A DNA stretch of 64,000 bases from Minisyncoccota bacterium. Lineage in GTDB: Bacteria > Patescibacteriota > Minisyncoccia > Phycocordibacterales > UBA9973. The position numbers and the translations under genes were made by a program. Of the stretch, positions 17,552-49,122 are shown piece after piece (positions within the stretch are counted from its first letter, which is position 1; each line of letters opens with the position of its first letter). The notes under the pieces are model-generated. The model was not told where the DNA came from, did no database searches, and was given only the letters and a program-made list of their open reading frames with translations. The stretch lies in NCBI GenBank assembly GCA_031972855.1, contig DALYDY010000001.1, forward strand, positions 128,048 to 192,047. Direction: 5' to 3'.

Positions 17552-17638
17552 CAAAAATAATTTAACGGAATCGCCTCTCCCTTCGGTCGAAACGCACTAA
17601 TTTTACATTCGTTACACTTATTAAAATTAGGCGCCTGC

Positions 17639-17661
17639 GGTTCGATTCCTACCGAGCGGAC
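17639..17661 (+). repeat. Inverted partial copy of the tRNA-Lys T-arm/acceptor 3' end (23 nt), convergent with tRNA-Lys across a palindromic terminator
   Basis: ggttcgattcctaccgagcggac is the exact reverse complement of 17716-17738 (gtccgctcggtaggaatcgaacc). Confidence 0.8.
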
Positions 17662-17673
17662 TTTAACAGAAAT

Positions 17674-17707
17674 AAAAAATACCAAATTTATAAATTTGGT
17701 ATTTTTT
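17674..17707. terminator. Perfect palindromic hairpin (bidirectional terminator) between the tRNA-Lys gene and its inverted fragment
   Basis: aaaaaataccaaattta/taaatttggtatttttt. Confidence 0.7.
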
Positions 17708-17715
17708 ATTTATTG

Positions 17716-17788
17716 TCCGCTCGGTAGGAATCGAACCTACGACCATCTCCTTAAAAGGGAGCTGCTCTACCAGCTGAGCTACGAGCGG
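17716..17788 (-). tRNA. tRNA-Lys (anticodon TTT); no encoded CCA
   Basis: Minus-strand cloverleaf: CCGCTCG acceptor, D arm GCTC-AGCTGGTA-GAGC, anticodon loop CTTTTAA, T arm GTAGG-TTCGATT-CCTAC, acceptor CGAGCGG + A. Confidence 0.85.
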
Positions 17789-17922
17789 ATGTATTTAAAG
17801 CATTCAACAGAGTAATAAGTATAACCTATTTTTTATTGAAGCCGCTACATCTAAGCTAACGAGCGGATATATTCTCTAAAATCTTTGGAAAATTAGAGAA
17901 TATGTATAATAAAATAGCATTT

Positions 17923-21405: not shown

Positions 21406-21441
21406 AAATCCCTCATAAGTAACTCTTATGGGGGATTTTTC
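21406..21441 (+). terminator. Rho-independent terminator after rpsT
   Basis: aatccctcataag-taac-tcttatgggggatt followed by a T run. Confidence 0.65.
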
Positions 21442-21463
21442 TTTGCTATACTATAAAAATATC

Positions 21464-22975
21464 ATGAAATATTTTCGACGAATTGTTAATTATTTTTTTT
21501 ATTCAATAAGAATAAATCGCATTTATCGCGATCACAAAAATTTTAAAAAACTTCAACAAGAAGAACTTTTTAAGATTATAAATTTAACAAAGGATACAAA
21601 GTGGGGGGCATTATATAAATATAATGAAATAAATTCTATAGAAGATTTTCAAAAAAATGTACCAATTTCAAAATATGAAGAAATAGCACCTTTTATAGAA
21701 GAGATGTTAAAGGGTGAAAAAAATATTTTATGGCCTGGCTTTGTTAAAAATTTTTCAAAATCATCAGGAACAACAAATGCAAAAAGTAAGTATATTCCAC
21801 TACCTGATATTTCTCTTCAAAAAAATCATTTCAACCAAGGTATGGATATGATATCTGTATATCTTTATAACAATAAATATTCTAGAGTACTTTTTGGTAA
21901 GACACTCTCTATTACCGGGAGTCTCTCGAATTCTCCTTTTGGTAATACAGATATTATGGTTGGAGATGTTTCGGCTGTCATAGCTTCAAACGTTCCAAAA
22001 TGGGCTCATATTATAAGAACCCCAAAACTATCTACAGCACTACTTTCTGATTGGAAAGAAAAGGTTGTAAAAATAGTTGACTCTGCTTCAAAAGAAAATG
22101 TTGTAGCATTACTTGGTACACCAACCTGGGTTTCTGTTATTTTGAATAGATTGAATGAAAATACAAATAAGCCTATAAGTGCTTCTTGGAAAAATTTAGA
22201 AGTGTTTTTTCATGGAGCTGTTTCTTTTGCTCCATACAAAACTCTTTTTAAAGAACTTCTTCCTGATAAAAAAATAAATTATGTTGAAGTATATAATGCT
22301 TCAGAAGGCTTCTTTGCTTTTTCTGATGATATGGAAAAACCAGAAGAAATGTTACTTTGTTTGTCTGGAGTATTTTATGAATTTATTCCACTATCTCTTT
22401 TTTCAAAAGGTGAAAGACATGCAGTCTCTTTAAAAGATGTTGAATGTGGTGTTTCTTATGTTGTTGTAATTACAACATATGGAGGACTTTCTAGATATGT
22501 GATTGGAGATACTATATCTTTTGTTAATCTTAATCCTTTTAAAATTATATTTACTGGACGTACAAAATATTTTTTAAATGCTTTTGGTGAAGAGTTAGAA
22601 GCTTTTCACGTTGAAAAAGCGCTGAAAGAATCACTCCAAAAAACAGGAGGTTCAATAAAAAATTTTACAGTTGCCCCTCTTTATATGAAGGATAATAAAA
22701 GCGGCGCTCATGAATGGCTTATTGAATGGTCATTTGAACCTTCTGATATTTTGTTATTTGAAAATAGTGTTGATGAAATTATTAAAAACTTGAACTCAGA
22801 TTATGAGGCAAAAAGAATGAACGATTCTATTTTAGGGAAGCCTGTTTTTAGATATTTACCCGAAAATACTTTTCATAATTGGATGGAAAAGAGGGGAAAG
22901 CTCGGAGGTCAGAACAAAGTCCCGATACTTTCAAATAATCGTGAATACGTTGATGATATTATAAATACACTTTAA
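21464..22975 (+). CDS. GH3 family (auxin-responsive GH3-like acyl-adenylating enzyme) protein
   Basis: SSGTTNAKSKYIPL adenylation motif and overall length typical of bacterial GH3 proteins. Start moved to ATG 21464 because the ORF-track start (21428) lies inside the rpsT terminator hairpin. Confidence 0.6.
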   Translation: MKYFRRIVNYFFYSIRINRIYRDHKNFKKLQQEELFKIINLTKDTKWGALYKYNEINSIEDFQKNVPISKYEEIAPFIEEMLKGEKNILWPGFVKNFSKSSGTTNAKSKYIPLPDISLQKNHFNQGMDMISVYLYNNKYSRVLFGKTLSITGSLSNSPFGNTDIMVGDVSAVIASNVPKWAHIIRTPKLSTALLSDWKEKVVKIVDSASKENVVALLGTPTWVSVILNRLNENTNKPISASWKNLEVFFHGAVSFAPYKTLFKELLPDKKINYVEVYNASEGFFAFSDDMEKPEEMLLCLSGVFYEFIPLSLFSKGERHAVSLKDVECGVSYVVVITTYGGLSRYVIGDTISFVNLNPFKIIFTGRTKYFLNAFGEELEAFHVEKALKESLQKTGGSIKNFTVAPLYMKDNKSGAHEWLIEWSFEPSDILLFENSVDEIIKNLNSDYEAKRMNDSILGKPVFRYLPENTFHNWMEKRGKLGGQNKVPILSNNREYVDDIINTL

Positions 22976-23885: not shown

Positions 23886-24407
23886 ATGAATAAACTTATT
23901 AACGAAACAGGAGAAGTTTTTACTGAGCGTACTTATTGCATAAATGCATATTTACGCGATATTGAAAAAATTCCTGTACTTAATAAGGTAGAGGAATTAG
24001 GATTGGTTCAAAAAGCCAGAGAAGGAGATGAAATGGCAAGAATGGTTTTAATTGTATGTAATTTGAAATTAGCTTTTAGAATTGCAAAAAAATACTATTC
24101 TCCAAAAATATCTTTTCATGATTTATTTTGTGAATCAAACGAAGGATTAATAAAGGGGGTGGATAGGGTAATATCTAAGTGGGATTCTTCTCGTGGCTTT
24201 AGAATAACAGCTCTTGCTATTTATTCTATTTACGGTCAACTGGTTAATAATTTTGATTTTTTAAAAGATCAAATAAAGTTACCTTATTCTGTTGCTAAGA
24301 TAATTCGAGAAAGAAAAAAAGTTTTTAAAGAGTTGCAATCAAAAAATTGTTGTGATCCATCAGAACAAATGGTTCTTGAAAATTATCAGAGAAAGATATT
24401 TTTTTAG
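23886..24407 (+). CDS. RNA polymerase sigma-70 family factor, N-terminal part (regions 1.2-3); interrupted at a T7 run
   Basis: YLRDIEKIPVLNKVEELGLVQKAREGDEMARMVLIVCNLKLAFRIAKKY (regions 1.2/2.1-2.2), HDLFCESNEGLIKGVDR (2.3/2.4), region-3-like tail. Stop codon immediately after TTTTTTT (24399-24405). Confidence 0.7.
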   Translation: MNKLINETGEVFTERTYCINAYLRDIEKIPVLNKVEELGLVQKAREGDEMARMVLIVCNLKLAFRIAKKYYSPKISFHDLFCESNEGLIKGVDRVISKWDSSRGFRITALAIYSIYGQLVNNFDFLKDQIKLPYSVAKIIRERKKVFKELQSKNCCDPSEQMVLENYQRKIFF

Positions 24408-24418
24408 ATAGGAGTCTA

Positions 24419-24865
24419 TTGATGATTCAAGAAGGACTTGAATTTGTTTATGAAAACAACGTTTCATTTTTTAGTACTGAAGAATGTTCAAATTTATTAA
24501 TTCAAAAAGAGTTATTCATTGCTGATGAAGATTTTTCAGCAGATCATTTTGTAGAAAAAGAAGATTTGAAAACAGATACATTAAGATCTCTTAGTTTCTT
24601 AACAGAAAAAGAATTTATAGTTGTTAGTCTGTATTATGGAATTGAATCTGAGAAACTTTTTAAACTTGTTTCTGGTATTAATAAAAATATTGGAATTGAA
24701 ATAAAAAATAAGTTTCAAAATCCAGAACACGAAGGACTAACTCTTGAGGAAATTTCTGGAATCATTCCTTTTACAGTGGAGAGGATTAGGCAGATAAAAG
24801 AAAAAGGAGTAAGAAGACTTAGACAATCTAGGGTTTCTGGTGTTTTGAGAAAATATTTAGGATAG
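24419..24865 (+). CDS. Sigma-70 region 4 (C-terminal part of the same sigma factor, different reading frame)
   Basis: LRSLSFLTEKEFIVVSLYYGI...LTLEEISGIIPFTVERIRQIKEKGVRRLRQ is a region-4 HTH. The frame is reached by adding 1 nt to the T7 run. Confidence 0.65.
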   Translation: MMIQEGLEFVYENNVSFFSTEECSNLLIQKELFIADEDFSADHFVEKEDLKTDTLRSLSFLTEKEFIVVSLYYGIESEKLFKLVSGINKNIGIEIKNKFQNPEHEGLTLEEISGIIPFTVERIRQIKEKGVRRLRQSRVSGVLRKYLG

Positions 24866-25154
24866 TCCCGCAGAAATGCGGGATTTTTTTTGTACTCTAG
24901 TTATGTACGCGAGTAAAGTAGATTGCTCTCGGTAGAAATCTCGCTACACTAAAGGTACTGCGATTTAAACAGGTTGATTAAAATCTAATAAATCGGGAGC
25001 CTACGGTCGCGGGTGAGTTTCAATCTCACTTCGTTCAATAATGAAACTCCTTTCGATTCCTAACAAAAATAAAGTAGTTCACGGAATCGCCTCTCCCTTT
25101 GGTCGAAACGCACAATTTTTATAATCACTCCGTTCTTTAAAAATTGGCGCCTAC

Positions 25155-25201
25155 GGTTCGATTCCTACACGCGAGCAAAGCAGATTGCTCGCTCGAGAGC
25201 A
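25155..25201 (+). repeat. Inverted copy of the tRNA-Arg(GCG) T-arm/acceptor 3' end interrupted by a 25-nt hairpin insertion
   Basis: ggttcgattcctac + acgcgagcaaagcagattgctcgct + cgagagca; compare the tRNA 3' end GGTTCGATTCCTACCGAGAGCA on the opposite strand. Confidence 0.75.
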
Positions 25202-25202
25202 C

Positions 25203-25239
25203 AAAGAGAAAAGCCTCCCTATGGGAGGCTTTTCTCTTT
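25203..25239. terminator. Palindromic hairpin (bidirectional terminator) between the tRNA fragment and tRNA-Arg
   Basis: aaagagaaaagcctccc-tat-gggaggcttttctcttt. Confidence 0.65.
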
Positions 25240-25240
25240 G

Positions 25241-25312
25241 TGCTCTCGGTAGGAATCGAACCTACATCGCAACTTCCGCAAAGTTGCGTCCTATCCATTG
25301 AACGACGAGAGC
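25241..25312 (-). tRNA. tRNA-Arg (anticodon GCG as read; possibly ACG/ICG family), no encoded CCA
   Basis: Minus strand: GCTCTCG acceptor, D arm TCGT-TCAATGGATA-GGACG, anticodon stem CAACT / loop TTGCGGA, T arm GTAGG-TTCGATT-CCTAC, CGAGAGC + A. Confidence 0.75.
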
Positions 25313-25390
25313 AGATTGATAACATATATCAATAGTAAGTAATATACAGTAAAAAACCCTTTTTGAAAAGGGTTTTTAAATATTCTTTAT

Positions 25391-26968: not shown

Positions 26969-27204
26969 TATTTTGTTGCGGAAGAGGTGAGATTCGCCTT
27001 CGACTAAAAATATTGCCGTCGCATATATTTTTGTCTAGGCACCGGCTCGAAAAATTTTCTGCTGAAAATTTTATACTCCGCTGTTCTAAAGTCCATCAAG
27101 GCATTAAAATGGACACCTGTGGACGGCCCGGCTCAGTCTCTGACTTTGTCAGGCTTCGCGGTCTGCGCCTTTCGAATCCTCCCAACCTTACCGAAAACAA
27201 AATC

Positions 27205-27226
27205 ACCCGACACTTTTGTGTCGGGT
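27205..27226. terminator. Hairpin terminator downstream of tRNA-Ser (bidirectional)
   Basis: acccgacac-tttt-gtgtcgggt with flanking T/A runs. Confidence 0.6.
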
Positions 27227-27239
27227 TCATTTGTTTTTG

Positions 27240-30806: not shown

Positions 30807-30818
30807 GAAAGTAGTTTG

Positions 30819-30890
30819 TGCCCTCGCGAGGAATCGAACCTCGAATAACGGCTTAGAAGTCCGCAGTTATATCCATTTAACTACAAGGGC
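30819..30890 (-). tRNA. tRNA-Arg (anticodon TCT); no encoded CCA
   Basis: Minus strand: GCCCTTG acceptor, D arm GTTA-AATGGATA-TAAC, anticodon loop CTTCTAA, T arm CGAGG-TTCGATT-CCTCG, CGAGGGC + A. Confidence 0.8.
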
Positions 30891-31086
30891 GTATTAGGTT
30901 TTATAAACTTAGTGTGTTCATATTTCTTACCACTACAAGGTCTTATATATTTATATATAACACATAATTTACATGTAGTATTGCTATCTTATCAAATATA
31001 GATAATTTAATAAAGTATTTCTAAATATTGTATTTTTTATAAAATTATTGTAATATAACCCTATTGGATACAAATGTTTCCTTTTT

Positions 31087-31159
31087 GGGCGATTAGCTCA
31101 GTTGGTAGAGCAACGCTTTTACACAGCGAAGGTCAGAGGTTCGAGTCCTCTATCGCCCA
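31087..31159 (+). tRNA. tRNA-Val (anticodon TAC); no encoded CCA
   Basis: GGGCGAT-TA-GCTC-AGTTGGTA-GAGC-A-ACGCT-TTTACAC-AGCGA-AGGTC-AGAGG-TTCGAGT-CCTCT-ATCGCCC-A. Confidence 0.85.
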
Positions 31160-31302
31160 CAAAATCAAAAACCTCATTCTGAAAGAATGAGGTTTTTGAT
31201 TTTTGAGGTAAATAGGGGATGAGAAAGACGGAGGCGCGAAGCCGGTTTTGTAAAAACCGTTGCCGAGTCGGGGTCGATAAATTTTAAAAAAATATTAGTG
31301 AC

Positions 31303-31325
31303 CGAGTCCTCTATCGCCCACAAAA
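31303..31325 (+). repeat. Direct repeat of the last 23 nt of tRNA-Val plus its trailer (cgagtcctctatcgcccacaaaa), 161 bp downstream of the tRNA
   Basis: Identical 23-mer at 31142-31164 and 31303-31325; each copy is followed by its own hairpin terminator. Confidence 0.8.
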
Positions 31326-31366
31326 ACAAAAACTCACTCTTCTGGAGTGAGTTTTTGTTTTAATAT

Positions 31367-35616: not shown

Positions 35617-35689
35617 GGGGATTATGGTGTAACGGTTAACACTGAGGTTTGTGGAACCTTCAATCTGGGTTCGATTCCCAGTAATCCCC
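35617..35689 (+). tRNA. tRNA-His (anticodon GTG) with encoded G(-1); no encoded CCA
   Basis: G(-1)-GGGATTA-TG-GTGT-AACGGTTA-ACAC-T-GAGGT-TTGTGGA-ACCTT-CAATC-TGGG-TTCGATT-CCCA-GTAATCCC-C. Confidence 0.85.
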
Positions 35690-37336
35690 CTTTTCAGGAG
35701 TTAATATAACGGAGTCAGGTAATTTGGTCTGGCGTATAGATACGTTCCGACCCCGACCCCTGACAGGACTTAATATAACTGAGTCATCCGTTGTAATAAT
35801 TCCTTTCTCAAAAGCTCGATCCTTTACCGGATCGGGCTTTTGCGTTGTGTTCCAAATAAGCGCGCCTGTTGCCTCAAGTCCTAACACGATTGGAGATTTA
35901 ATTGCCTCGACGATTAGCTTGTCCTCGGCTTTGAATTGGTCCCAGAAAAGCCCAAGGTACAGGCGTTTCAAATCGTCCGGTGCTTTCTGGTAGGTCTTGC
36001 CGATGTTCCGCATAAGGGCTAGTACGTCTTGGATTACATCAATCTTCAGGTTCTTTGTTTGGTCCAGTTTGTGCATTTCGTCCTCGACTCCATCAATCTG
36101 TTCTCGGTAGCGGACCTTTATTTTGGTGAACGCCGCATCGTCGATGATTCCGTTGATCAGCTTTTCTTCGGCGATCTCAAGTTTGCGCTCGAAGTTTATT
36201 TTTGATGTCATGAACTGTTTCTTTTGATTCCCGACATCGGATTTCTTTTCTTCGTAGATGTCCCGCATTTTCTTCACCACTTTATCTATGAAGTCGTCAG
36301 AGAATTGCAGTCCTTTGAATTTCTCTATGATCTGATTTTCTAAATCAAACACCTCGACGTATTTGTCGGTACATTTCTTTTGGTCATTGGACCGATTGCA
36401 GTGGTAGTACGCTTTCTTTTTCAAAGGGTGATATTCGGCCGTGTATCGTTGGCCGCACTTGTTACAAAATACAAATCCGCGCAGTAGAAAGTTATGCTTG
36501 TGCCGTCTGCATGCGTAGCGATTATTTTCCAGCATGACTCTCTGGCATTTATCAAAAAGCTCTTTGGTGATGATTGCCTCATGCTTGCCGATATCATTCA
36601 TCCCTCGCCACTCCATTCCGCCATAATAAAAAGGGCACTTGATTGTGCGAAACATTTTACTCATCGCCACTCGTTTACCCACGGTGCTGACCAGTCCTTT
36701 CTTGTAGAGCAGATCCCGAATCTCAATCAGGGAATAATCGCCGGTGCTATAGAGTTTGAATCCCTCGGCGATGAGTGGTGCGCGGATCGGGTCTGTCGTG
36801 ATGATTCTTTTCTTTTCGTCGTCGGGAGTTCCCGAGTTGAAGTATCCCATCGGTGCTTTCGTCGGCCACCATCCGTCCTTGTATTTTTGCTCCATGCTCT
36901 TGAGCGTCTTTCGGGAAGTGATCTGCGATTGCAGTTGGTTCACGCCGGCAATTATCAAGTCCATGAAGTTGCCCTCGGGCGTGTCCTCGAGTCCCGGTTG
37001 CGATACCGATATCAGTTCGACGTTGTGCTTTCGCAGGAGTGCCTTGATCGTAAGGTGGTCCCCGGCATTACGGGCGAGTCGGTCCGTATCTTGGACGAAG
37101 ATCGCGCCGATGCTCTTATCCTCTTGGATACGGATCAACATGTCTTGAAGTCCGGGGCGATTCATGTTGGTCGCGCTCTTGCCCGGGTCCTTGTAGACAC
37201 CGTCGTCGGCAAGCTTGAAGGTTTTCATATCTTCAATGCCGCGCTCGCAGAGGCGCAGTTGGGTTTTTAATGAGTGCCGTTCGTCACCGGCTTGTTCATC
37301 GGTGGAAACTCGGCAGTAAATGAGAGCTTTATTCAT
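35660..37336 (-). CDS. Large serine recombinase (resolvase/invertase catalytic domain + recombinase domain + zinc ribbon)
   Basis: N-terminal YCRVSTDEQ catalytic-Ser motif, resolvase-domain conserved Arg/Asp residues, central recombinase domain, C-terminal Cys cluster (CNKCGQ...HCNRS). Start taken at MNKALIYCRVS. The open frame continues antisense through the tRNA-His 3' end before the first stop. Confidence 0.8.
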   Translation of the reverse strand: MNKALIYCRVSTDEQAGDERHSLKTQLRLCERGIEDMKTFKLADDGVYKDPGKSATNMNRPGLQDMLIRIQEDKSIGAIFVQDTDRLARNAGDHLTIKALLRKHNVELISVSQPGLEDTPEGNFMDLIIAGVNQLQSQITSRKTLKSMEQKYKDGWWPTKAPMGYFNSGTPDDEKKRIITTDPIRAPLIAEGFKLYSTGDYSLIEIRDLLYKKGLVSTVGKRVAMSKMFRTIKCPFYYGGMEWRGMNDIGKHEAIITKELFDKCQRVMLENNRYACRRHKHNFLLRGFVFCNKCGQRYTAEYHPLKKKAYYHCNRSNDQKKCTDKYVEVFDLENQIIEKFKGLQFSDDFIDKVVKKMRDIYEEKKSDVGNQKKQFMTSKINFERKLEIAEEKLINGIIDDAAFTKIKVRYREQIDGVEDEMHKLDQTKNLKIDVIQDVLALMRNIGKTYQKAPDDLKRLYLGLFWDQFKAEDKLIVEAIKSPIVLGLEATGALIWNTTQKPDPVKDRAFEKGIITTDDSVILSPVRGRGRNVSIRQTKLPDSVILTPEKGDYWESNPD

Positions 37337-37509
37337 GGTAATTGTAATAGTTAGCTGATAAGGGCAATGCGACGACATTATGCTAGGAACACGGGATATA
37401 GCAATGGTGGGTTTTGTTTTTGTGTCGTATATGTGGTCATTTTTATCGTTTTTCACTACTGGCTTAACTGACGTTATTTTGAAATGGTCCTTATTTCATG
37501 GGCTATTAA

Positions 37510-37869
37510 CTACAGAAATCCGTCATGTCTGTTCCGAGGGTCGATCCAGTCGCCCGGGTACTCTCTGATGATTTCATTGAGTTTCTGTCGCAACTGCGCC
37601 ATTTCAACAGAAAACTGTTCAAGCCGTTCTTTCCATCGGTCAAACTGCGGTCGCTTTTCACGGAGTACTGTCTGTTCTTTCGTAAGGCGTTCGAATGCTT
37701 TCCACATCAGCTTTGTTGCATATGCTCGGTTGAGGTTGTATCCCTTTTCTTTGAGGTAATAGCAAAGCGCACGAGCGCTCATGCTCGTATCTTTGGATAC
37801 GATGTCATAGATGATATCGATATGGTGGTTTGTTTGTTCTGATGAGTATTTCATGGATTGTGAAAACAA
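37510..37869 (-). CDS. Hypothetical small HTH/coiled-coil protein (possible transposase-OrfA-like or recombination accessory factor)
   Basis: 119 aa, GC-rich codon usage like the island; basic helical N-terminus. Weak similarity only. Confidence 0.3.
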   Translation of the reverse strand: MFSQSMKYSSEQTNHHIDIIYDIVSKDTSMSARALCYYLKEKGYNLNRAYATKLMWKAFERLTKEQTVLREKRPQFDRWKERLEQFSVEMAQLRQKLNEIIREYPGDWIDPRNRHDGFL

Positions 37870-38030
37870 AATTCATTCTGGCTTATTCGCTGTTTGGTGG
37901 CTTGTGATGGATTGTCATTCGGTGTTTTCTTAGGGTTTTCAGTATTTTTTGGCACGCGCGTTAGGTTTCTTTTTTTATTTCCTTTATTTTCTTTCTTACC
38001 CCCTCGAAAGTGTTCGGTATGCTGAACACC

Positions 38031-38504
38031 TTATAGCGGTTTAACCCTGAATTTATCAGTAAGATTCTTGATTCCGTCTTGTAAATTTGAACGGTCTTGC
38101 TGTTCATTCTGTCGAATGTTCTGTTCTGTAGGTTGAATCCCTTGTTCGATACACCGAAATCCCTGTTCAGCTTGCCGAACCGAGGCTTGATAAATCCAGA
38201 AGTAATTCACACCTGTTTTATTTTTCGGGAGCTTAATAAGGAACCCTTTCTCGGCGAGTGACTTTCTGGTTTCACTGATCTTGCCACGGGACCAGTTTGG
38301 CAAGCAGTGATCTTTGATGTCTTGAAGTGATAAGTCCTCGATGATACCAAACCGCTCCTCGTCGCGTTTATCCCATCGTGCATGGGTCACATACATGTCG
38401 AAAAGCCGATACTCCTGATCGGTCATCACTTTTTTGTATTCGATAGCCATATATCTATATAGCTTTAGGTAGCCTACGTGTTTTTTCTTCATGTTCATTT
38501 TCAT
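38031..38504 (-). CDS. Hypothetical protein (157 aa)
   Basis: ORF with island-like composition. Confidence 0.35.
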   Translation of the reverse strand: MKMNMKKKHVGYLKLYRYMAIEYKKVMTDQEYRLFDMYVTHARWDKRDEERFGIIEDLSLQDIKDHCLPNWSRGKISETRKSLAEKGFLIKLPKNKTGVNYFWIYQASVRQAEQGFRCIEQGIQPTEQNIRQNEQQDRSNLQDGIKNLTDKFRVKPL

Positions 38505-38618
38505 GCTCGATTTGCATCAAGAGGATTTGGGCGAGACGTTCGACAAAGAAATCCAAGTCTTTTGGATTCAAGGGGACCTGTACAGGGACCGGTTTGTTGT
38601 CGAGCGTCTGGTCCATAA

Positions 38619-38876
38619 TTAATTTACCTCGTAGAGGCGGGTCTTTAACGCTTTGATCTGGTCAAAGTAAGCGCGCGGTTCGACCGACAGCTGACGCTTT
38701 TGGAATTCTGAAACAATGTCTTCAAGTTCCGGAGTCCGGGCGAATATGAATTGCGCTCGCCTCGGTACACTCTTGTCGACATCTTCGAGTGGCACGAACA
38801 GCGAAATTGCCGCCGCGCACGCGAGGTCTGAAGTTTGGTACATAGATTTTTGATTAATAATAATTTTCATAGTCAT
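38619..38876 (-). CDS. Hypothetical protein (85 aa)
   Basis: ORF only. Confidence 0.3.
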   Translation of the reverse strand: MTMKIIINQKSMYQTSDLACAAAISLFVPLEDVDKSVPRRAQFIFARTPELEDIVSEFQKRQLSVEPRAYFDQIKALKTRLYEVN

Positions 38877-39354
38877 TTTTCAAAGAGCTAGCTGAAAACA
38901 AAAAAGAGGACTTGCAACGCAAATCCAATATTGATGGATATGCATCACAAGTCCTCCGGGGTATTCGGCCAGACTTCGAACATTAGTTGTGAAAAGACTA
39001 CTCTCAAATCGTAGCGCGGACCGCTAATGAAGCGCAACTCCTGACAGTGTGGACAAAGTAGTATGCCTAGTGAACCACTTAAAGATTTTATCTTTACGTC
39101 ATAACAACTTTTTGGAATCGAATTGGCCGTATGAGGAGAGCAATAGAACACTTGTTTTTAAAAAGGCAAACAGTGGAGAGATTCCCTGTAGGCTTAGTCT
39201 GGTATCTATAACACCGTGGGGATAACCGATAAAGGTTGTAGATATGCGACAAGTAAAATCTAAAATAACCCTTATTTAAAAGGGCTATTTTTGGAATAGG
39301 GGTCTCTTGTAAATAACTATTTGCAAGTAAAGGCACTTTCTTGTATACTTATGT

Positions 39355-40821
39355 TTGCAAGTGAAAAAGCCTATGAAAACAGAGCAAAAACAAAAAATCT
39401 TTGAATTTATACAGGACCAGATCGCAAATGCTGACTTTAGAATCAAGGCATACGTATTTGATGAGTCCGGGAAGAAGCGTCTCGGGCGTAACTGCTTTGT
39501 GAAGCTTGATATGCATGTACAGAACTTCCTACAAGGAAAATCTCCTATTCGATGGATAACCATGTATGGCTTACGTGGTGCCGGCAAAACTACCTTACTT
39601 GCTCAGTTGTATGAGCAGACGAAAATTGAGAGCAAAAGAAAATTATTTTTATCAGTGGATCAGGCGGTTGGAATTTTTGGAGTTAGTCTCAAAGATATTC
39701 TTGATGTCTACGAAGAATCGCTTGGTACATCCTTCGAACGTCTCACGGAACCAGTCTTCCTTTTTCTTGATGAGGTTCAATACGATGAGAAGTGGGCTCT
39801 ATTACTCAAAACGATTTATGATCGCAGTAGCAAGGTTTTTATTATTGCGACAGGTTCGTCTGCGCTTTCGCTACAAGCGAGTCCTGATGTTGCACGACGC
39901 GCAATTTTTGAAAAACTTTTCCCGATGAGCTTCACGGAATATATAAAGATTAAAAATCAAAAGACAGAAATTCGGGGACTTGCCAAGGAACTACGCGAGG
40001 CGATTTTTAATTCCAAAGATGCTAAAGAGGTTCACACACGTCTTAAGGGTTTGGAAGTAAAAGCTCGGCAGTATTGGTTAGATATAGAACGGAAAGAGAT
40101 TGATTCATATATGCAATATGGGACACTGCCTTTTATGATCGCTCTGAATAATGAGGCAATGGTCTACGATCAAATCAAGAAGACCCTTGAGCGTGTTATC
40201 AGTATTGATATTCCACATATAAATCAATTTTCAGCAGAGACTATATCCAAGATACCAATGGTGCTTTATGCACTTGCAGAAACGGACCAGTTGAGCTTGA
40301 GCAGTCTCGCTGATAAAGGCGAGCTTGATATTAGCCGTCCAGTGCTTACAGCCGTTCTCGAAACTCTGGAAAGAACAGAAACGATTTGGCGTATTTACCC
40401 TCATGGGTCGCATGTAACACAAACAACTCGTCAGCCATCAAAATATCTTTTTACGAGCCCAGCGTTTCGGTCCATGTATTTTAATTTTATAGGAAACACA
40501 AGGACCCACGATACCTATAAAGGGAAAATACTTGAAGATACTGTCGGTCTTTATCTTAATCGCATATTCTCGGGCAAGCCCGACACTTCCGTAACGTACG
40601 ACAGTGCCGCCGGCGGAGCTGATTTCATTATTCGTCAAAGTAAAGACATGATTGTATTGGAAGTCGGGTACGGCGATAAATCGTTTAGGCAAGTTGTAAC
40701 TACAATGGCAAAGGTCGGAGTAAATGCTCGATACGGCATAGTTGTGTCGCAAAGTCCGCTTGCCTTAGATGAAGAGAAAAATGCAGTAAGTATCCCACTC
40801 TCTTATTTTTTGTTGATGTAA
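39355..40821 (+). CDS. AAA+ superfamily ATPase (COG1373/DUF4143-type)
   Basis: Walker A GLRGAGKTTLLAQL, Walker B FLDEVQY, C-terminal DUF4143-like region; 488 aa. Confidence 0.65.
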   Translation: MQVKKPMKTEQKQKIFEFIQDQIANADFRIKAYVFDESGKKRLGRNCFVKLDMHVQNFLQGKSPIRWITMYGLRGAGKTTLLAQLYEQTKIESKRKLFLSVDQAVGIFGVSLKDILDVYEESLGTSFERLTEPVFLFLDEVQYDEKWALLLKTIYDRSSKVFIIATGSSALSLQASPDVARRAIFEKLFPMSFTEYIKIKNQKTEIRGLAKELREAIFNSKDAKEVHTRLKGLEVKARQYWLDIERKEIDSYMQYGTLPFMIALNNEAMVYDQIKKTLERVISIDIPHINQFSAETISKIPMVLYALAETDQLSLSSLADKGELDISRPVLTAVLETLERTETIWRIYPHGSHVTQTTRQPSKYLFTSPAFRSMYFNFIGNTRTHDTYKGKILEDTVGLYLNRIFSGKPDTSVTYDSAAGGADFIIRQSKDMIVLEVGYGDKSFRQVVTTMAKVGVNARYGIVVSQSPLALDEEKNAVSIPLSYFLLM

Positions 40822-40845
40822 AGATCCAGAATAATTAAAATTACT

Positions 40846-41034
40846 ATGAAAATCGACAACCAAGAAAACAAAAAAGAACTCTACATCAAATGCGTAAAAT
40901 GCGGTGATGAGATTTTTTGGAATACGCACAAACAACTAACTTACTGCACATGTAAGGCTATTTATGTTGATGGCTGCGAGGGTTATATCCGGGTCGGCGG
41001 AAATAAAGAGGATCACGTTGAGATTCAAAAATAG
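40846..41034 (+). CDS. Small zinc-ribbon protein
   Basis: CVKCGDE...CTCKAIYVDGCEG Cys pattern; 62 aa. Confidence 0.4.
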   Translation: MKIDNQENKKELYIKCVKCGDEIFWNTHKQLTYCTCKAIYVDGCEGYIRVGGNKEDHVEIQK

Positions 41035-41039
41035 ATCAC

Positions 41040-41372
41040 ATGAATAATCAAAAGATAGAAATTATAAGACAACCAGTATTTAAACCTTTTGAAAGTAGAA
41101 TGGTTCTTTGCGCTGATCCTGTTATCAAAATAAGCGATAAAGAAAAAATAGCCCGCTTTGCTATTTCTATGGTTGATACATCTGTTTTACAGTTGGGAGA
41201 TAATTTTGAAAAATTAAACAAAATGATTAGAGATACTCTCCAGGACGGTGTTCAAGAAAATTTTGAAATAGATGGTGTTTACTACTTTGAATACACAGGT
41301 AGTCATTTCCAACAATTAGATGGGAAACCAGATTGGGCTAATGATTTCTATAGACAAGGTATAAATATTTAA
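41040..41372 (+). CDS. Hypothetical protein (110 aa)
   Basis: ORF only; 6-bp intergenic gaps on both sides (operonic). Confidence 0.35.
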   Translation: MNNQKIEIIRQPVFKPFESRMVLCADPVIKISDKEKIARFAISMVDTSVLQLGDNFEKLNKMIRDTLQDGVQENFEIDGVYYFEYTGSHFQQLDGKPDWANDFYRQGINI

Positions 41373-41377
41373 AATTT

Positions 41378-42847
41378 ATGGGATGGATAATTTTCATTGG
41401 AATAGTTATTTACTTCATTTACAGCTCTTCAAAAAGCACAGGTACTTCAGCGTCTCCATCTAAGCCTCACTACTCGAAGCCTTATAGCAAGCCCGCAGTT
41501 GTTGTAAATAAAAAACTAAATGAGGATCAGTTACTTGTTGAAAAAATAACGCTTAGCGAAGAGCAGCAGACCCTGTTCGATAAAATCGAACATAGCACCG
41601 ATCACTTCTTCATTACAGGTAAGGCGGGGACCGGTAAGTCAGTGTTGTTGCAGTATTTGAAATTCAAATCAAAGAAACGCTTGGTTGTTGGTGCTTTTAC
41701 CGGAGTCGCTGCACTGAACGTAGGAGGCCAGACCTTGAATTCGTTATTCGAATTGCCGACGGGTTTCATAGATTTAAGTCGCTTAACAGTAAGCGGTCGA
41801 GTTTCCACTTTGATGAGGCACGTTGATACTGTCGTCATCGATGAGATATCTATGGTCCGGGCTGATATGATGGGTGCCATTGATGTAATTCTTCGACAGG
41901 CGCGCAAGAATGACGTTCCATTCGGCGGAGTTCAAATGGTCATGTTTGGGGACCTTTACCAATTACCTCCCGTTGTGGCCGACGAAGCACTGCATCAGTA
42001 TTTTGCCCATAATCATGGTGGTCCTTATTTTTTTAATGCTGATGTCTGGCAGAGAGCAACACTTCACACTTTCGAACTGAGTCATATTTTCCGTCAGCAG
42101 GATGATGAGGAATTCAAAGCTATTCTTAATTCAGTACGAAAAAATCAAATAGAAGATACTGTCCTTTCATCCTTGAATCAACGGCACGTTGACCAGGTAC
42201 CCACTGACGGAGTCGTTACGCTTGCAACTCGCAACGCTGTGGTTGATCGAATAAACAATGATCGCCTGGCTCGACTTGGCGGTGAGTTGTATGAATATCG
42301 CGCAGATGTTTCTGGGAATTTAGAACGATCTGCGTTTCCAGCTGAAGAATTCTTACGACTCAAAAAGGGTGCTCAGGTGATGCTCCTCAAAAATGATCCA
42401 GAGAAGCGATGGGTAAATGGTACGGTCGGTGTGGTTGAGTCGTTGTCATCGTCTGAAATAAAGGTCCGCATTAATGGCGAAATTATTTATTCGATCCCGC
42501 GAGCAACCTGGACCAAAATTCGCTATTTCTACGATACTGAAACAAGAAAAATCGAAGAGGAAGTTTTGAGCTCATTTACTCAATTCCCACTTCGCTTGGC
42601 ATGGGCGTTCACGATTCACAAATCCCAAGGTAAAACATACAATGCTGTCGTCGTAAATATGGAGGGAGGTGCTTTTGCTCACGGACAAACGTATGTTGCG
42701 CTCAGTCGTTGCACTTCTCTTAACGGACTATATCTGACCCAGCCTATCGAAAGAGATGATATAAAAGTTGATCCGGTCGTAGTCAGCTTTATGGAACAAA
42801 TTACATTAGAGACTATTAATCCTGATGTACAAACACAAATTATATGA
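41378..42847 (+). CDS. PIF1/RecD-family (SF1B) DNA helicase
   Basis: Walker A GKAGTGKSVLL, VVIDEISMV (Walker B), GDLYQLPPV (Pif1 motif III), C-terminal SF1 helicase motifs (AFTIHKSQG...YVALSR); N-terminal TM segment. Confidence 0.8.
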   Translation: MGWIIFIGIVIYFIYSSSKSTGTSASPSKPHYSKPYSKPAVVVNKKLNEDQLLVEKITLSEEQQTLFDKIEHSTDHFFITGKAGTGKSVLLQYLKFKSKKRLVVGAFTGVAALNVGGQTLNSLFELPTGFIDLSRLTVSGRVSTLMRHVDTVVIDEISMVRADMMGAIDVILRQARKNDVPFGGVQMVMFGDLYQLPPVVADEALHQYFAHNHGGPYFFNADVWQRATLHTFELSHIFRQQDDEEFKAILNSVRKNQIEDTVLSSLNQRHVDQVPTDGVVTLATRNAVVDRINNDRLARLGGELYEYRADVSGNLERSAFPAEEFLRLKKGAQVMLLKNDPEKRWVNGTVGVVESLSSSEIKVRINGEIIYSIPRATWTKIRYFYDTETRKIEEEVLSSFTQFPLRLAWAFTIHKSQGKTYNAVVVNMEGGAFAHGQTYVALSRCTSLNGLYLTQPIERDDIKVDPVVVSFMEQITLETINPDVQTQII

Positions 42848-44226: not shown

Positions 44227-44240
44227 CACATAATTAATTC

Positions 44241-44768
44241 ATGACACTACTTATTTTCCAAATTCTCTCAAGCGTTTTTGGTTTTGCAAACAAACTCTTG
44301 CTGTATCTTGGGAAACGAACGGGTTGGATTTTGGGATTTCTGGCGGGAGTATTTTTTGTCGTTTATTTTTTCCTAATCGGATTTACTGTATATGCATTCG
44401 TACAAATAGGATTTAGTCTTTTGATGCTGTATGGATATTTTTCTCATACAGGAATCTCTAAAAATGCAAGAATTTTTGCCACCGTAATTTTATCTTTAAT
44501 CGCTATTATTATTTGCTTTATAACGTTTAACGGCAAACTGACTTTACTTGAAGCAACTTCAGCTTTATTGGCCTCATGGGGCACATACTATCTTGCATCA
44601 AAGAATAATATAAAAGGGTGGGGCATGTACCTTATTGCTCATTTTATCCTTATTTATCTAACCATCATAAAACAACAATATATTTTTGCCTTGTTTCAAG
44701 GGTTGTCAGCAGTCGTTTCGATCTTAGGAATTATTAGATCAGGAGATACTAAAACGAAGGGTTTCTAA
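44241..44768 (+). CDS. Small multi-TM membrane protein (possible PnuC-like transporter; uncertain)
   Basis: 175 aa, 5-6 TM helices, directly downstream of the CDPS-SBP fusion gene. Confidence 0.3.
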   Translation: MTLLIFQILSSVFGFANKLLLYLGKRTGWILGFLAGVFFVVYFFLIGFTVYAFVQIGFSLLMLYGYFSHTGISKNARIFATVILSLIAIIICFITFNGKLTLLEATSALLASWGTYYLASKNNIKGWGMYLIAHFILIYLTIIKQQYIFALFQGLSAVVSILGIIRSGDTKTKGF

Positions 44769-44785
44769 AAGTTTAACTATTAAAA

Positions 44786-44821
44786 AAACCTCATGTTGAA
44801 TTTATACAACATGAGGTTTAA
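44786..44821. terminator. Bidirectional hairpin terminator
   Basis: aaacctcatgttg-aatttataca-acatgaggttt. Confidence 0.7.
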
Positions 44822-44850
44822 CTTTTGATGAAGAGGATTAAACTGTCATC

Positions 44851-45423
44851 TCAGTTCATTTGAGCTTTAATACCGAAAACTTCGCCACCATACGCAAACA
44901 CCTGTTCATCTAACACCTTGATCAAGCTGGAAAGTACTTTGTCTTTCTTTTTTGAATGGGCAAAGATGATGTTTTCAACCGAGATGACAATCTCACCTTT
45001 TTTGAGCTTATTGACACTTTTTTCAAAACTGCCATCGCTATAAGGTATAGATTGGGTAATGATAGTATCAGCGGTTGCTTGTTCAATTTTAATTACGCAA
45101 CTGCCACTCATTCCACTCATCCTGCCTTCAATGCTGTAACGGGCATTTACTATGCGGTTGCCTACACTATCTCTTTGATATGCATCAGGGTCTTTCCATT
45201 CAATGTTGGTTCCAACTGTAGGGAAGTATTTTTTCGCAGTATCGACCATTAAGGCAAACACTGAATCCAATACTTCATTTTTAACAATTTTTGCTTCCAC
45301 CTTTGGAACCTCCTTTGCTACGGGGACCGGAGCGAGAGTGTCATTTCTACTTTCTGGCTCATTAGAGCAAGATGTCATACATAAAGCGATAAACGCAATA
45401 GAAAGATTAAGTAACTTTTTCAT
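44851..45423 (-). CDS. Lipoprotein (hypothetical)
   Basis: Signal peptide with lipobox LCMTSC. Confidence 0.5.
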   Translation of the reverse strand: MKKLLNLSIAFIALCMTSCSNEPESRNDTLAPVPVAKEVPKVEAKIVKNEVLDSVFALMVDTAKKYFPTVGTNIEWKDPDAYQRDSVGNRIVNARYSIEGRMSGMSGSCVIKIEQATADTIITQSIPYSDGSFEKSVNKLKKGEIVISVENIIFAHSKKKDKVLSSLIKVLDEQVFAYGGEVFGIKAQMN

Positions 45424-45533
45424 TTGTTATTTGGTTTTGATTGTTTGAAAAGAACGAATTTCACTGTCAACCCACAACGTTTTGTTATGAACTGAATAAT
45501 GAAGGGAGCTACTTTATTCACTCCCTTTGAGGT

Positions 45534-46112: not shown

Positions 46113-46189
46113 TTAACCAGAATACAGTAAACCTCTCGCCGTCTTCGGTATAACGAGTAGAGGCTTCGTTCATTTAAATCTTAATTGTC

Positions 46190-48888: not shown

Positions 48889-48932
48889 CCCCAAAAGAGA
48901 AAAAGCCCATAAGGGCTTTTTCTCTTTTGGGG
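48889..48932. terminator. Long perfect palindrome (hairpin terminator) at the right end of the GC-rich island
   Basis: ccccaaaagagaaaaagccc-ataa-gggctttttctcttttgggg. Confidence 0.6.
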
Positions 48933-48974
48933 GATTAAGCAAGTGAACTACTTCACTTGCGTCTGGGAATCGAA
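48929..48974 (-). repeat. tRNA-His 3'-end-like fragment (inverted relative to tRNA-His) interrupted by a 25-nt hairpin insertion
   Basis: Plus strand gggggatta + agcaagtgaactacttcacttgcgt + ctgggaatcgaa. The flanks equal the reverse complement of tRNA-His 3' end GGGGGATTACTGGGAATCGAA (21/21). The insertion is a homologue of the 25-nt insertion at 25169-25193. Confidence 0.7.
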
Positions 48975-49122
48975 AAGCTTTTGCTTATTTATGAAAATCT
49001 TTGATTTGAATAAATGCAAAAGGTGTACTGCTCCTGTAAGGAGAGATTCCTATTAATCTAAAAATTATTTATATTGACTTATAAAAAAATAAATAGTATA
49101 TTACGATAAATAATTTTAATTT

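What the first reader, a model, noticed from the sequence alone, without database searches (positions are those of the whole stretch)
17565..17788. tRNA-Lys flanked by an inverted copy of its own 3' end, plus a conserved 33-nt block shared with the tRNA-Arg locus
The 23 nt ggttcgattcctaccgagcggac (plus strand, 17639-17661) is the exact reverse complement of the tRNA-Lys T-arm/acceptor. The two copies flank a perfect 34-nt palindromic hairpin, forming a large interrupted palindrome. About 40 nt further upstream, the block acggaatcgcctctcccttcggtcgaaacgcac (17565-17597) recurs almost identically at 25081-25113. There it is again followed by a partial tRNA T-arm copy (ggcgcct[a/g]cggttcgattcctac) convergent with a tRNA. 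This conserved module sitting downstream of tRNA genes is unexplained. It could be an ncRNA, a mobile-element att remnant, or a tRNA-targeting repeat family.
Basis: seen in the sequence. Interest (0 to 1): 0.65.

Follow-up and report, generated by a model that had tools for sequence, protein, structure and literature searches.

The report
Structured repeat trailing tRNA genes
The sequence next to tRNA-Lys is one copy of an undescribed, about 93-nt folded element that sits just behind tRNA genes in Patescibacteria, is read on the tRNA's own strand, carries copies of the tRNA's 3' end in both orientations, and recombines with the tRNA gene; its function is unknown.

Summary
The 23-nt inverted copy of the tRNA-Lys 3' end, the central palindrome (42 nt, not 34) and the 33-nt block shared with the tRNA-Arg(GCG) locus are all present.

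The block and the T-arm copy are two ends of one 93-nt element:
- **Family:** a covariance model finds 15 distinct copies in 10 Patescibacteria-like genomes or contigs, plus one weak hit in a MAG labelled Phycisphaerae. Nearly all lie directly behind a tRNA and its terminator.
- **Fold:** a three-way junction with strong covariation, 35 G·U cells against 0 A·C, and an invariant tandem G·A.
- **Arms:** the 5' arm is an antisense copy of tRNA positions 52-74. The 3' arm is a direct copy starting at C56. The 5' arm tracks each species' own tRNA.
- **Recombination:** the spacer between tRNA and arm is exactly inverted between two species.
- **Databases:** Rfam 15 has no match.

Copies come and go between close relatives and form tandem arrays, and at least two other body types share the layout.

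My best reading is a tRNA-derived structured 3'-trailer element kept matched to its tRNA by recombination. A selfish element targeted to the T-loop is a close rival. Function is inferred, not shown.

The parts
17716..17788 (-). tRNA-Lys(UUU), no encoded CCA
   Evidence: ARAGORN and Rfam RF00005, 70 bits
17670..17711 (.). Perfect 42-nt AT-rich palindrome with A and T runs on both sides. Terminator-like hairpin shared by both directions.
   Evidence: repeat I2. The consensus terminator scan did not call it because it has fewer than 3 G-C pairs.
17639..17661 (-). Arm alpha. On the minus strand it is the exact antisense of tRNA-Lys positions 52-74. It equals the acceptor 5' strand, then the T-stem 5' strand, then the anti-T-loop.
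   Evidence: It is 23/23 conserved in L055 and L059. In L061 it is replaced by the antisense of that species' own tRNA.
17562..17654 (-). Type A structured module: covariance-model hit of 107.8 bits spanning P1, P2 and P1a.
17643..17649 (-). P1 5' strand, GGAAUCG (anti-T-loop)
   Evidence: Pairs with 17567-17573. Invariant in 14 copies apart from rare G·U or mismatch cells.
17591..17635 (-). P2: AU-rich hairpin closed by GC/GU pairs and preceded by a GYAGG tag.
   Evidence: 10 of its 14 pairs show changes on both sides
17576..17590 (-). P1a: hairpin UCGACC-GAA-GGGAGA with an invariant tandem G·A/A·G internal loop.
   Evidence: Covarying pairs: 65-79 UA/UG/CG, 69-75 CG/GC, 70-74 CG/UA.
17567..17573 (-). 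Arm beta and P1 3' strand, CGAUUCC: a direct copy of tRNA positions 56-62.
   Evidence: It extends to 15-19 nt of the tRNA 3' end in L017, L034 and L054.
17826..17867 (-). Pseudo 5' tRNA-Lys fragment (CCGCTCGTTAGCTTAGATGTAGC...) in the leader upstream of the tRNA.
   Evidence: Present in two copies in L055 and L059.
25241..25312 (-). tRNA-Arg(GCG)
25194..25248 (.). Perfect 26+26-nt hairpin. It comprises the intrinsic terminator, the tRNA-Arg acceptor 3' strand and its antisense (the outer part of alpha).
   Evidence: repeat I1
25169..25193 (-). Hairpin inserted into alpha exactly at the acceptor/T-stem junction, with the loop motif ..CUGC...
   Evidence: Absent from the L055 ortholog. The same kind of insert occurs in L056 Arg-UCU, L060 Lys and the window His module.
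25078..25170 (-). Type A module behind tRNA-Arg(GCG), 110.5 bits. P1 = 25159-25165 with 25083-25089; P2 = 25107-25151; P1a = 25092-25106.
24905..25066 (-). Second, degenerate module in tandem. Alpha is GTTAGGAATCGAA. Beta is GATTTCTACCGAGAGCA, close to the tRNA-Arg 3' end.
26979..27238 (-). Longer, diverged module behind tRNA-Ser(UGA). Its P1 is GGAUUCG:CGAAUC, which matches the TTCGAAT T-loop.
   Evidence: Largely absent from L055.
31161..31360 (+). Type C module behind tRNA-Val. It runs terminator, body, exact 19-nt direct copy of the tRNA 3' end from C56 (31303-31321), then a second terminator.
48929..49058 (+). Type B module belonging to tRNA-His (alpha with inserted hairpin, body, beta AGATTCC...). 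A roughly 13-kb island now separates it from its tRNA.

Best explanation
The segment 17562-17661, read on the minus strand, is one copy of a tRNA-derived structured element. It lies directly behind a tRNA gene and its intrinsic terminator in Patescibacteria.

**Fold.** It forms a three-way junction:
- a closing helix P1, in which the anti-T-loop GGAAUCG pairs with a T-loop copy CGAUUCC;
- an AU-rich hairpin P2;
- a hairpin P1a with a tandem G·A.

**Arms.** The 5' arm continues outward as the exact complement of the neighbouring tRNA's last 23 nt. As a result, the tRNA 3' end, the terminator and the arm form a roughly 100-nt palindrome. The 3' arm is a direct copy of the tRNA from C56.

**Shown:**
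- the family and its association with tRNAs;
- the fold and its strand;
- that the arm tracks each species' own tRNA;
- that the DNA between tRNA and arm inverts.

**Inferred mechanism.** The element is transcribed as a 3' trailer only when RNA polymerase reads through the tRNA terminator.
- In that RNA the 5' arm can pair with the tRNA 3' end, giving a predicted duplex of more than 45 bp.
- That duplex would mark read-through transcripts for double-strand-specific processing.
- The folded junction, often with its own terminator, would close the transcription unit.
- Recombination and gene conversion between the inverted and direct repeats keep the arms identical to the tRNA. The same events generate tandem copies, inversions and losses.
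For: **Family and tRNA association**
- Model R1 finds 14 copies at E<=0.01 in the first search set and one more in L061. All that lie near a tRNA are on its strand.
- Eleven copies lie directly behind a tRNA and terminator, or behind another copy.

**Fold**
- 90.8% of cells are paired against 78.3% in shuffles (0/500 reach it).
- 13 of 27 pairs change on both sides.
- Controls with partners slid by 1-3 columns give 38-47% paired.

**Strand**
- 35 G·U cells against 0 A·C, plus an invariant tandem G·A.
- The tRNA-strand reading has the lower folding energy in every copy.
- Promoter-like sites occur only on the tRNA strand.

**Selection**
- Module stems are conserved between the window and L055, while the adjacent terminator sequence is completely different.

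**Arm tracks the tRNA**
- It is a 23/23 antisense copy in the window, L055 and L059.
- L061 has a different 23-mer that matches its own tRNA.
- L060 and the window Ser module change P1 to match their own T-loops.

**Recombination**
- The L055 spacer is the exact reverse complement of the L059 spacer, 54/54.
- The tRNA+module cassette is inverted between the window and L055/L056.

**Read-through duplex**
- The MFE of the tRNA-to-beta RNA is -102 kcal/mol. In that fold tRNA positions 52-74 pair with alpha.

**Own terminators**
- They follow the copies in L017, L054 and the window Val and Ser loci.
Against: - There are no expression data, and transcription past a strong terminator is assumed.
- The window Lys copy has no terminator of its own and abuts the promoter of the next gene.
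- The lengths of both arms vary between orthologous copies. Beta is 7 nt in the window clade and 15-19 nt elsewhere. Alpha is 13-23 nt. This argues against a function for the acceptor parts.
- Three unrelated body types (A, B, C) share the same layout, and types A and B share the same junction at T55/C56. That is easier to explain by a common insertion mechanism than by a common RNA function.
- Presence or absence differs between species that share 86% identity in the GH3 protein: Arg-UCU, Ser, and an orphan copy in L059.
- The alignment used for the pair counts was fitted to the model, which favours the structure.
Confidence: 0.4

Rival explanations
1. It is a non-autonomous selfish element: a MITE-like or REP-like repeat, or a miniature integrative element. 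It inserts at the T-loop of tRNA genes between T55 and C56 and brings a replacement tRNA 3' end plus terminator. The fold is needed in a single-stranded DNA (or RNA) intermediate recognised by an enzyme encoded elsewhere.
For: - Beta, the direct repeat of the tRNA 3' end, starts at C56 in the T-loop in types A and B. In L017-Gly, L017-Arg and the window Val locus it includes the trailer and terminator.
- The T-loop is a known crossover site of class II integrases (PMC1762012).
- Several body types share the layout.
- Tandem arrays occur.
- Presence or absence differs between close relatives, and one copy is an orphan whose alpha and beta derive from different tRNAs.
- A module-like copy sits inside a genomic island.
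- The GYAGG tag in front of P2, G·T pairs and a position downstream of genes resemble GTAG-tagged REPs (PMC3733652).
- DNA inversions occur at the repeats.
Against: - No transposase, RAYT or integrase lies next to any copy in the gene tables of the fetched loci.
- The element between the repeats is only about 170 nt.
- The inverted arm alpha is not produced by integrase-type recombination.
- Copies persist at orthologous tRNAs (Lys-UUU, Arg-GCG) across genomes only 58-60% identical in PolA.
- Two viral-collection scans found nothing.
- The GYAG tag is not uniform. Seven of 14 copies have GTAGG, three have GCAGG and the rest differ.
Confidence: 0.3
2. It is a trans-acting small RNA made from the tRNA strand. 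It mimics or sequesters the tRNA top half (acceptor plus T stem). Examples would be a decoy for enzymes or toxins that bind the tRNA 3' half, or an antisense to tRNA 3' fragments.
For: - When both arms are long, P1 reproduces the acceptor/T-stem stack exactly. L017 copy M2 has 19 bp.
- The inserted hairpins sit at the 7/49 junction, where the rest of a tRNA would branch off.
- Alpha is perfectly complementary to tRNA positions 52-74.
Against: - In the window clade P1 is only 7 bp and the acceptor part of alpha has no partner inside the module.
- No T-loop, D-loop or 3' CCA features are present.
- ARAGORN and the Rfam tRNA and tmRNA models do not recognise it.
- There is no promoter evidence.
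Confidence: 0.12
3. It is a passive by-product. Scars of past integrations or duplications sit at the tRNA 3' end, and the terminator palindrome has been extended by template switching (quasipalindrome correction). No function is involved.
For: - Arm lengths vary.
- Palindromic spacers remain perfect while their sequence changes.
- The spacer inverts.
- Pseudo 5' tRNA fragments lie upstream as well.
Against: - The body is conserved, with compensatory changes, across genomes whose neighbouring intergenic DNA is saturated.
- The unpaired junction nucleotides and the tandem G·A are invariant.
Confidence: 0.08
4. One reading: a plus-strand ncRNA gene convergent with the tRNA and ending at the shared terminator.
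For: - The terminators are bidirectional, with A and T runs on both sides.
- At the Arg locus the modules lie between two convergent terminators.
Against: - 0 A·C against 35 G·U cells.
- The internal loop would be pyrimidine-pyrimidine on the plus strand.
- The plus strand folds less well in all copies.
- No plus-strand promoter-like site is found.
Confidence: 0.05

Closest known systems
GTAG-tagged REP/BIME elements and their RAYT transposases
   Same: Both are small structured intergenic repeats that lie downstream of genes and next to terminators. Both have a hairpin preceded by a G(T/Y)AG tag, frequent G·T pairs, tandem and inverted clusters, and copy numbers that vary between strains (PMC3733652).
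   Different: This element is about 93 nt and forms a three-way junction, not a 20-40-nt hairpin. It is tied specifically to tRNA 3' ends. Its arms copy the neighbouring tRNA. No RAYT gene was seen. It occurs in Patescibacteria, where REPs have not been reported in the paper read.
att sites of T-loop (class II) integrative elements: displaced tRNA 3' fragments
   Same: Both show a direct repeat of the tRNA 3' end that begins inside the T-loop, downstream of an intact tRNA (PMC1762012).
   Different: Only about 170 nt lie between the repeats and there is no integrase. An additional inverted copy is present. The intervening sequence is a conserved, covarying structure.
MITEs such as Correia or RUP elements (from general knowledge)
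   Same: Both are short, lack an ORF, have terminal inverted repeats able to form a long stem, occur in multiple copies and show insertion polymorphism.
   Different: The terminal repeats are not element-specific and change with the local tRNA. No clear target-site duplication of fixed length is seen. Copies are conserved at orthologous tRNAs over large distances.
tRNA-like minihelices and 3' tRNA-like structures (mascRNA, viral TLS; from general knowledge)
   Same: In some copies the closing helix reproduces the acceptor/T-stem stack, followed by the discriminator base.
   Different: There is no T-loop or elbow and no CCA. Helix length is not conserved. The tRNA and mascRNA models do not match.
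Distal repeats of the E. coli tyrT locus, which carry the tRNA-Tyr 3' end (recalled from memory; not verified here, and one search found no source)
   Same: Both have repeated units downstream of a tRNA gene, each containing the last nucleotides of that tRNA.
   Different: The tyrT units are direct 178-bp repeats, with no inverted arm or conserved three-way junction known to me.
IS110 bridge RNA and TIGR-Tas guide arrays
   Same: All three are RNAs with two segments complementary to opposite strands of one DNA site. TIGR systems occur in CPR bacteria (PMC12045711).
   Different: TIGR units are 8-12-nt repeats with 9-nt spacers and box C/D motifs. Bridge RNAs carry their guides in internal loops next to a recombinase gene. 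None of these features is present here.

Membership tests
tRNA / tmRNA | Cloverleaf, or a tRNA-like domain with T-arm and acceptor stem, recognised by ARAGORN or Rfam RF00005/RF00023 | tested here: not met
   ARAGORN and Rfam call only the seven true tRNAs. No hit falls on the module even at E<=10.
Any Rfam 15 family | Covariance-model match at or near the gathering score | tested here: not met
   The only hits are palindrome-driven matches to miRNA precursor models, far below threshold, in the window and in 7 other loci.
Integrative-element att site (class II, T-loop) | Direct repeat of the tRNA 3' segment starting in the T-loop | tested here: met
   Beta starts at C56. It is 7 nt in the window Lys copy and 15-19 nt in L017, L034, L054 and the window Val locus.
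Integrative-element att site (class II, T-loop) | A mobile element with an integrase between the two repeats | tested here: not met
   About 140-200 nt of non-coding sequence lie between the repeats.
REP/BIME (GTAG superfamily) | Unpaired GTAG-type tag at one end of a short stem-loop | tested here: inconclusive
   A GYAGG tag precedes P2 in 10 of 14 copies, but the two G's may pair with UU, and the hairpin is much larger than a REP.
REP/BIME (GTAG superfamily) | Associated RAYT (Y1 transposase) gene in the genome | not testable with these tools
   Only partial genomes are held. No Y1_Tnp appears in the gene tables of the fetched loci.
MITE | Terminal inverted repeats and multiple copies | tested here: met
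   P1 arms range from 7 to 19 bp. There are 2 type A copies in the window and 15 in the sampled loci.
MITE | Fixed-length target-site duplication and a cognate transposase | tested here: inconclusive
   The direct repeat varies from 7 to more than 40 nt. No transposase was seen.
Hammerhead or other small self-cleaving ribozymes | Conserved catalytic core (CUGANGA...GAAA for hammerhead) | tested here: not met
   The tandem G·A next to a hairpin resembles stem II, but G5 and A6 are replaced by UU (GUUUCGA). There is no Rfam ribozyme hit.
T-box riboswitch | Stem I specifier loop and a T-box antiterminator pairing with NCCA, upstream of a gene | tested here: not met
   There is no Rfam T-box hit. 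The element lies 3' of tRNAs, and its complementarity is to tRNA positions 52-74, not to NCCA.
Intrinsic terminator (the central palindrome) | G+C-rich hairpin followed by a U run | tested here: inconclusive
   The Lys hairpin is a perfect 21-bp stem with T runs but has too few G-C pairs for the scan. Arg-type hairpins have GC-rich cores followed by U-rich tracts.

The most novel reading that the evidence does not exclude
The modules are the visible part of a new recombination or mobility system specific to tRNA genes in Patescibacteria. In this reading a folded single strand (RNA or DNA) carries two tRNA-derived arms complementary to opposite strands of the tRNA gene's T-loop/acceptor region. 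That strand guides or templates strand exchange at T55/C56. The result is flip-flop inversion, tandem amplification and spread between tRNA loci. This would be analogous in logic to bridge-RNA or folded-hairpin (CTX/attC-type) recombination, but it would use the tRNA T-arm as the site.
Probability: 0.15. Interest if true: 0.85.

Novelty: new variant of a known kind. Interest (0 to 1): 0.62.

Why it matters
Patescibacteria make up a large share of bacterial diversity, yet almost nothing is known about their non-coding elements. Several points would follow if this holds:
- **A new motif.** This is a conserved, covarying three-way-junction motif absent from Rfam. In the sampled Paceibacteria-like genomes, modules of this or the related types B and C lie behind most tRNA transcription units.
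- **An unusual architecture.** Both arms copy the neighbouring tRNA, one inverted and one direct from the T-loop. The DNA between tRNA and arm demonstrably inverts. This links tRNA gene ends, terminators and recombination in a way not described before.
- **Two possible pay-offs.** If it is an RNA, it would be a new class of tRNA 3'-trailer element. If it is mobile, it would be a new tRNA-targeted repeat family.
- **Practical effects.** Logan contigs end inside the palindrome. Partial tRNA copies can mislead att-site and island predictors.

Tried and rejected
- **Plus-strand sRNA gene.** Rejected on G·U/A·C asymmetry, the tandem G·A and the lack of a promoter.
- **Split or permuted tRNA.** I considered the upstream 5' fragment at 17826-17867 joining with the plus-strand 3' half. 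The flanking 13-mers are identical rather than complementary, and there is no anticodon stem.
- **tmRNA, including two-piece forms.** There is no ARAGORN or Rfam hit, no tag reading frame, and there are several copies per genome.
- **Hammerhead and other ribozymes, T-box.** The core motifs are missing.
- **TIGR array or IS110 bridge RNA.** The architecture does not fit.
- **Integron attC-like site.** The R''/R' boxes would be in the wrong order and carry a mismatch (by inspection of the sequence).
- **Strict block-A pattern in public collections.** It gave 0 hits in representative genomes and one chance hit in a GC-rich coding sequence in metagenomes.
- **T-arm-junction pattern in representative genomes.** It gave 47 hits. 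About 40 were chance matches inside coding sequences of GC-rich genomes, and 4 were clear modules next to tRNAs in low-GC MAGs.
- **Viral contigs.** Two patterns gave 0 hits.
- **Extended P2 pairing (C16-G67, G17-C66, A19-U65).** Not supported by the variation seen.
- **Organism names from cluster look-up.** None were returned.
- **Literature.** I found no description of such elements.

Full report
**1. Observation**

The window is bacterial, at about 31% G+C, and encodes PolA, Fpg, a sigma-70 factor and PilM. PolA homologs at 58-60% identity are named Candidatus Pacebacteria, Paceibacterota or Patescibacteria group. I therefore treat the organism as a Paceibacteria-like member of the Patescibacteria (CPR).

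- tRNA-Lys(UUU) lies at 17716-17788 on the minus strand.
- Plus-strand 17639-17661 equals the tRNA's last 23 nt.
- Between the two copies lies a perfect 42-nt palindrome, 17670-17711.
- Block 17565-17597 recurs at 25081-25113 with one mismatch.
- The block GGCGCCTNCGGTTCGATTCC occurs only at these two loci.
- At the Arg locus the T-arm copy and the acceptor copy are split by a 25-nt hairpin.

**2. One element, many genomes**

Close strains are identical across the region, and short-read contigs break inside the palindrome.

- A relative whose flanking protein is 61% identical (L007) carries two tandem modules at the orthologous place.
- A junction pattern scanned over representative genomes recovered four low-GC MAGs with clear modules. 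One is labelled Candidatus Saccharibacteria. Each module lies 56-60 nt from a tRNA (Arg-GCG twice, Gln-UUG) or in a tandem pair behind one (Arg-CCG).
- Syntenic loci from species with 86% and 77% GH3 identity (L055/L056, L059) and about 59% PolA identity (L060-L063) gave orthologous comparisons.

**3. Anatomy, read in the direction of the tRNA**

The order is: tRNA, terminator hairpin, arm alpha, body, arm beta.

- **Alpha** is the antisense of tRNA positions 52-74. Equivalently, it is the acceptor 5' strand, then the T-stem 5' strand, then the anti-T-loop AAUCGAACC.
- **Body** runs GYAGGC, P2, GUUYCGA and P1a, then GG.
- **Beta** is a direct copy of the tRNA from C56 (CGAUUCC...).
- **P1** is formed by GGAAUCG in alpha pairing with CGAUUCC in beta.
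- **P1a** is a hairpin, YCGA-stem-loop-stem-GAGR, with an invariant tandem G·A/A·G.
- **P2** is an AU-rich hairpin closed by covarying G-C/A-U pairs.

**4. Fold and strand**

A covariance model built on the tRNA strand finds the two window copies at 110 and 108 bits. It finds 14 copies at E<=0.01 in the first search set and one more in L061.

| Measure on the 14-copy alignment | Observed | Control |
|---|---|---|
| Cells forming a standard pair | 90.8% | 78.3% in shuffles (0/500 reach it) |
| Pairs changed on both sides | 13 of 27 | mean 7.6 in shuffles |
| Covariation score | 0.267 | 0.107 in shuffles |
| Cells paired with partners slid 1-3 columns | n/a | 38-47% |

My own count gives 261 Watson-Crick, 35 G·U and 0 A·C cells.
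- Two G·U columns are nearly invariant.
- Without them the count is still 8 G·U to 0 A·C.
- On the opposite strand the internal loop would be U·C/C·U.
- Every copy folds better on the tRNA strand.

Promoter-like sites lie upstream of the tRNAs on the minus strand, and none lies upstream of the module on the plus strand.

I conclude that the folded strand is the tRNA strand. One caveat applies: the alignment was fitted to the model.

**5. The arms follow the local tRNA**

- Alpha is a 23/23 antisense copy of tRNA-Lys in the window, L055 and L059, although the terminator between them has changed completely.
- In L061 the tRNA-Lys acceptor differs, and alpha is the 23-nt antisense of that tRNA.
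- L060 has the T-loop TTCGATC, and the window Ser tRNA has TTCGAAT. Both change the two P1 strands accordingly.
- Arm lengths vary. Beta is 7 nt in the window clade and 15-19 nt in L017, L034 and L054. Alpha is 13-15 nt in L030, L034 and L054.
- In L017 copy M2 both arms are long, and P1 is a 19-bp replica of the acceptor/T-stem stack.

**6. Recombination**

- The 54-nt spacer between tRNA-Lys and alpha in L055 is the exact reverse complement of that in L059. Inversion between the 23-bp inverted repeats has therefore occurred.
- The whole tRNA-Arg(GCG)+module cassette is inverted relative to its neighbours between the window and L055/L056. So is the tRNA-Val/tRNA-Arg(UCU) pair.
- Modules occur in tandem.
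- A module follows tRNA-Arg(UCU) in L056 but not in the window.
- The Ser module is largely missing in L055.
- L059 has an orphan copy whose two arms derive from different tRNAs.
- A hairpin with the loop motif ..CUGC/CUAC.. is inserted at the acceptor/T-stem junction of alpha in four modules.

**7. Other body types**

- **Type B** follows tRNA-Arg(UCU) in L056 and belongs to tRNA-His in the window.
- **Type C** follows tRNA-Val in the window and several tRNAs in L017, L060, L062 and L063. It carries a conserved GAGCGACGGCGAG hairpin.

Both types occupy the same place behind the tRNA, and some copies carry the same arms.

**8. What it is not**

Rfam 15 gives nothing for the window or for seven other loci. 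tRNA, tmRNA, T-box, ribozyme, TIGR and bridge-RNA features are absent. Two scans of viral contigs found nothing.

**9. Interpretation**

The following are firmly shown:
- a new family of structured elements tied to tRNA 3' flanks;
- a fold on the tRNA strand;
- arms homogenised with the adjacent tRNA;
- DNA rearrangement at these repeats.

How it works is inferred.

*Preferred reading: a tRNA-derived 3'-trailer element.*
- A read-through RNA is predicted to fold into a giant hairpin in which alpha pairs with the tRNA 3' end, at -102 kcal/mol.
- Many copies have their own terminator.
- The element persists at orthologous tRNAs across deep divergence.

*Main rival: a selfish element aimed at the T-loop.*
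- It is favoured by the shared T55/C56 junction of types A and B, the polymorphism, the tandem arrays and a REP-like tag.
- It is weakened by the lack of any linked recombinase and by the inverted arm.

I cannot separate the two without expression or population data.

**10. Verdict**

The element is a new variant among structured intergenic repeats or candidate ncRNAs, and its function is unknown.

Noticed in passing
window 35691-48888: A genomic island of about 13 kb with higher G+C (0.40-0.46 against about 0.31) is inserted right after tRNA-His (35618-35690). It separates the tRNA from its own terminator and type B module (48889-49058). It encodes a large serine recombinase (35660-37456, minus), an AAA/DUF4143 protein, a PIF1-like helicase, a cyclodipeptide synthase fused to a solute-binding domain, and a reverse transcriptase (47681-48697). 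Near-repeats AGGAGTTAATATAACGGAGTCA and AGGACTTAATATAACTGAGTCA lie at its left end.
   Followed up: partly
window 31161-31360; L017 1653-1990; L060, L062, L063 behind tRNAs: A second conserved element (type C) lies behind tRNAs. Its consensus is CGGAGCGATGT-hairpin-CGCGAGCCGGGGTCGC, then a stem capped by GAGCGACGGCGAG, ending GTGACCAC. It is not in Rfam and is duplicated in tandem in L017.
   Followed up: partly
window 48929-49058; L056 12464-12630; L007 1-60: A third body type (type B) has a hairpin CTTTTGC...GCAAAAG, then CTCCTGTAAGGAG, then AGATTCC. It is nearly identical between the window His module and the L056 Arg-UCU module.
   Followed up: partly
window 17826-17867 (minus); L055 and L059 upstream of tRNA-Lys: The leader of tRNA-Lys carries one (window) or two (relatives) truncated copies of the tRNA 5' end, CCGCTCGTTAGCTTAGATGTAGC. 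tRNA-Lys is thus flanked by fragments of itself on both sides.
   Followed up: partly
window 39103-39200: A module-like sequence sits inside the island: TTGGAATCGAA ... GAGAGATTCCCTGTAGGC. No tRNA is next to it.
   Followed up: no
window 24900-25320 vs L055 13270-13500; window 30818-31330 vs L056 11930-12640: Whole tRNA cassettes (promoter, tRNA, terminator, module) are inverted relative to the flanking genes between the window and a species with 86% GH3 identity.
   Followed up: partly
window 23886-24407 and 24419-24865: Sigma-70 regions 1.2 and 4 lie on two adjacent ORFs in different frames. This could be a frameshift, an assembly error or a split gene.
   Followed up: no
L003-L006 (Logan contigs), ends at window 17699-17705: Four independent short-read assemblies of the same organism all stop inside the 42-nt palindrome. 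These elements therefore fragment assemblies.
   Followed up: yes
window 21428-22975: Beyond three close relatives and a few unnamed hits at 49-53%, the homologs of the GH3-family protein (45-50% identity) that carry a name are all from Bacteroidota (Cytophagales, Riemerella, Fulvivirga). This hints at horizontal acquisition.
   Followed up: no
L008 7483-7572 (MAG labelled Phycisphaerae): A weak (21.8 bits) but recognisable type-A-like copy, CGGTAGGAATCGAAC...GCGAGGCGATTCA, lies in a 51% G+C contig with no tRNA in the fetched stretch. The family may reach beyond Patescibacteria, or the contig may be mis-binned.
   Followed up: no
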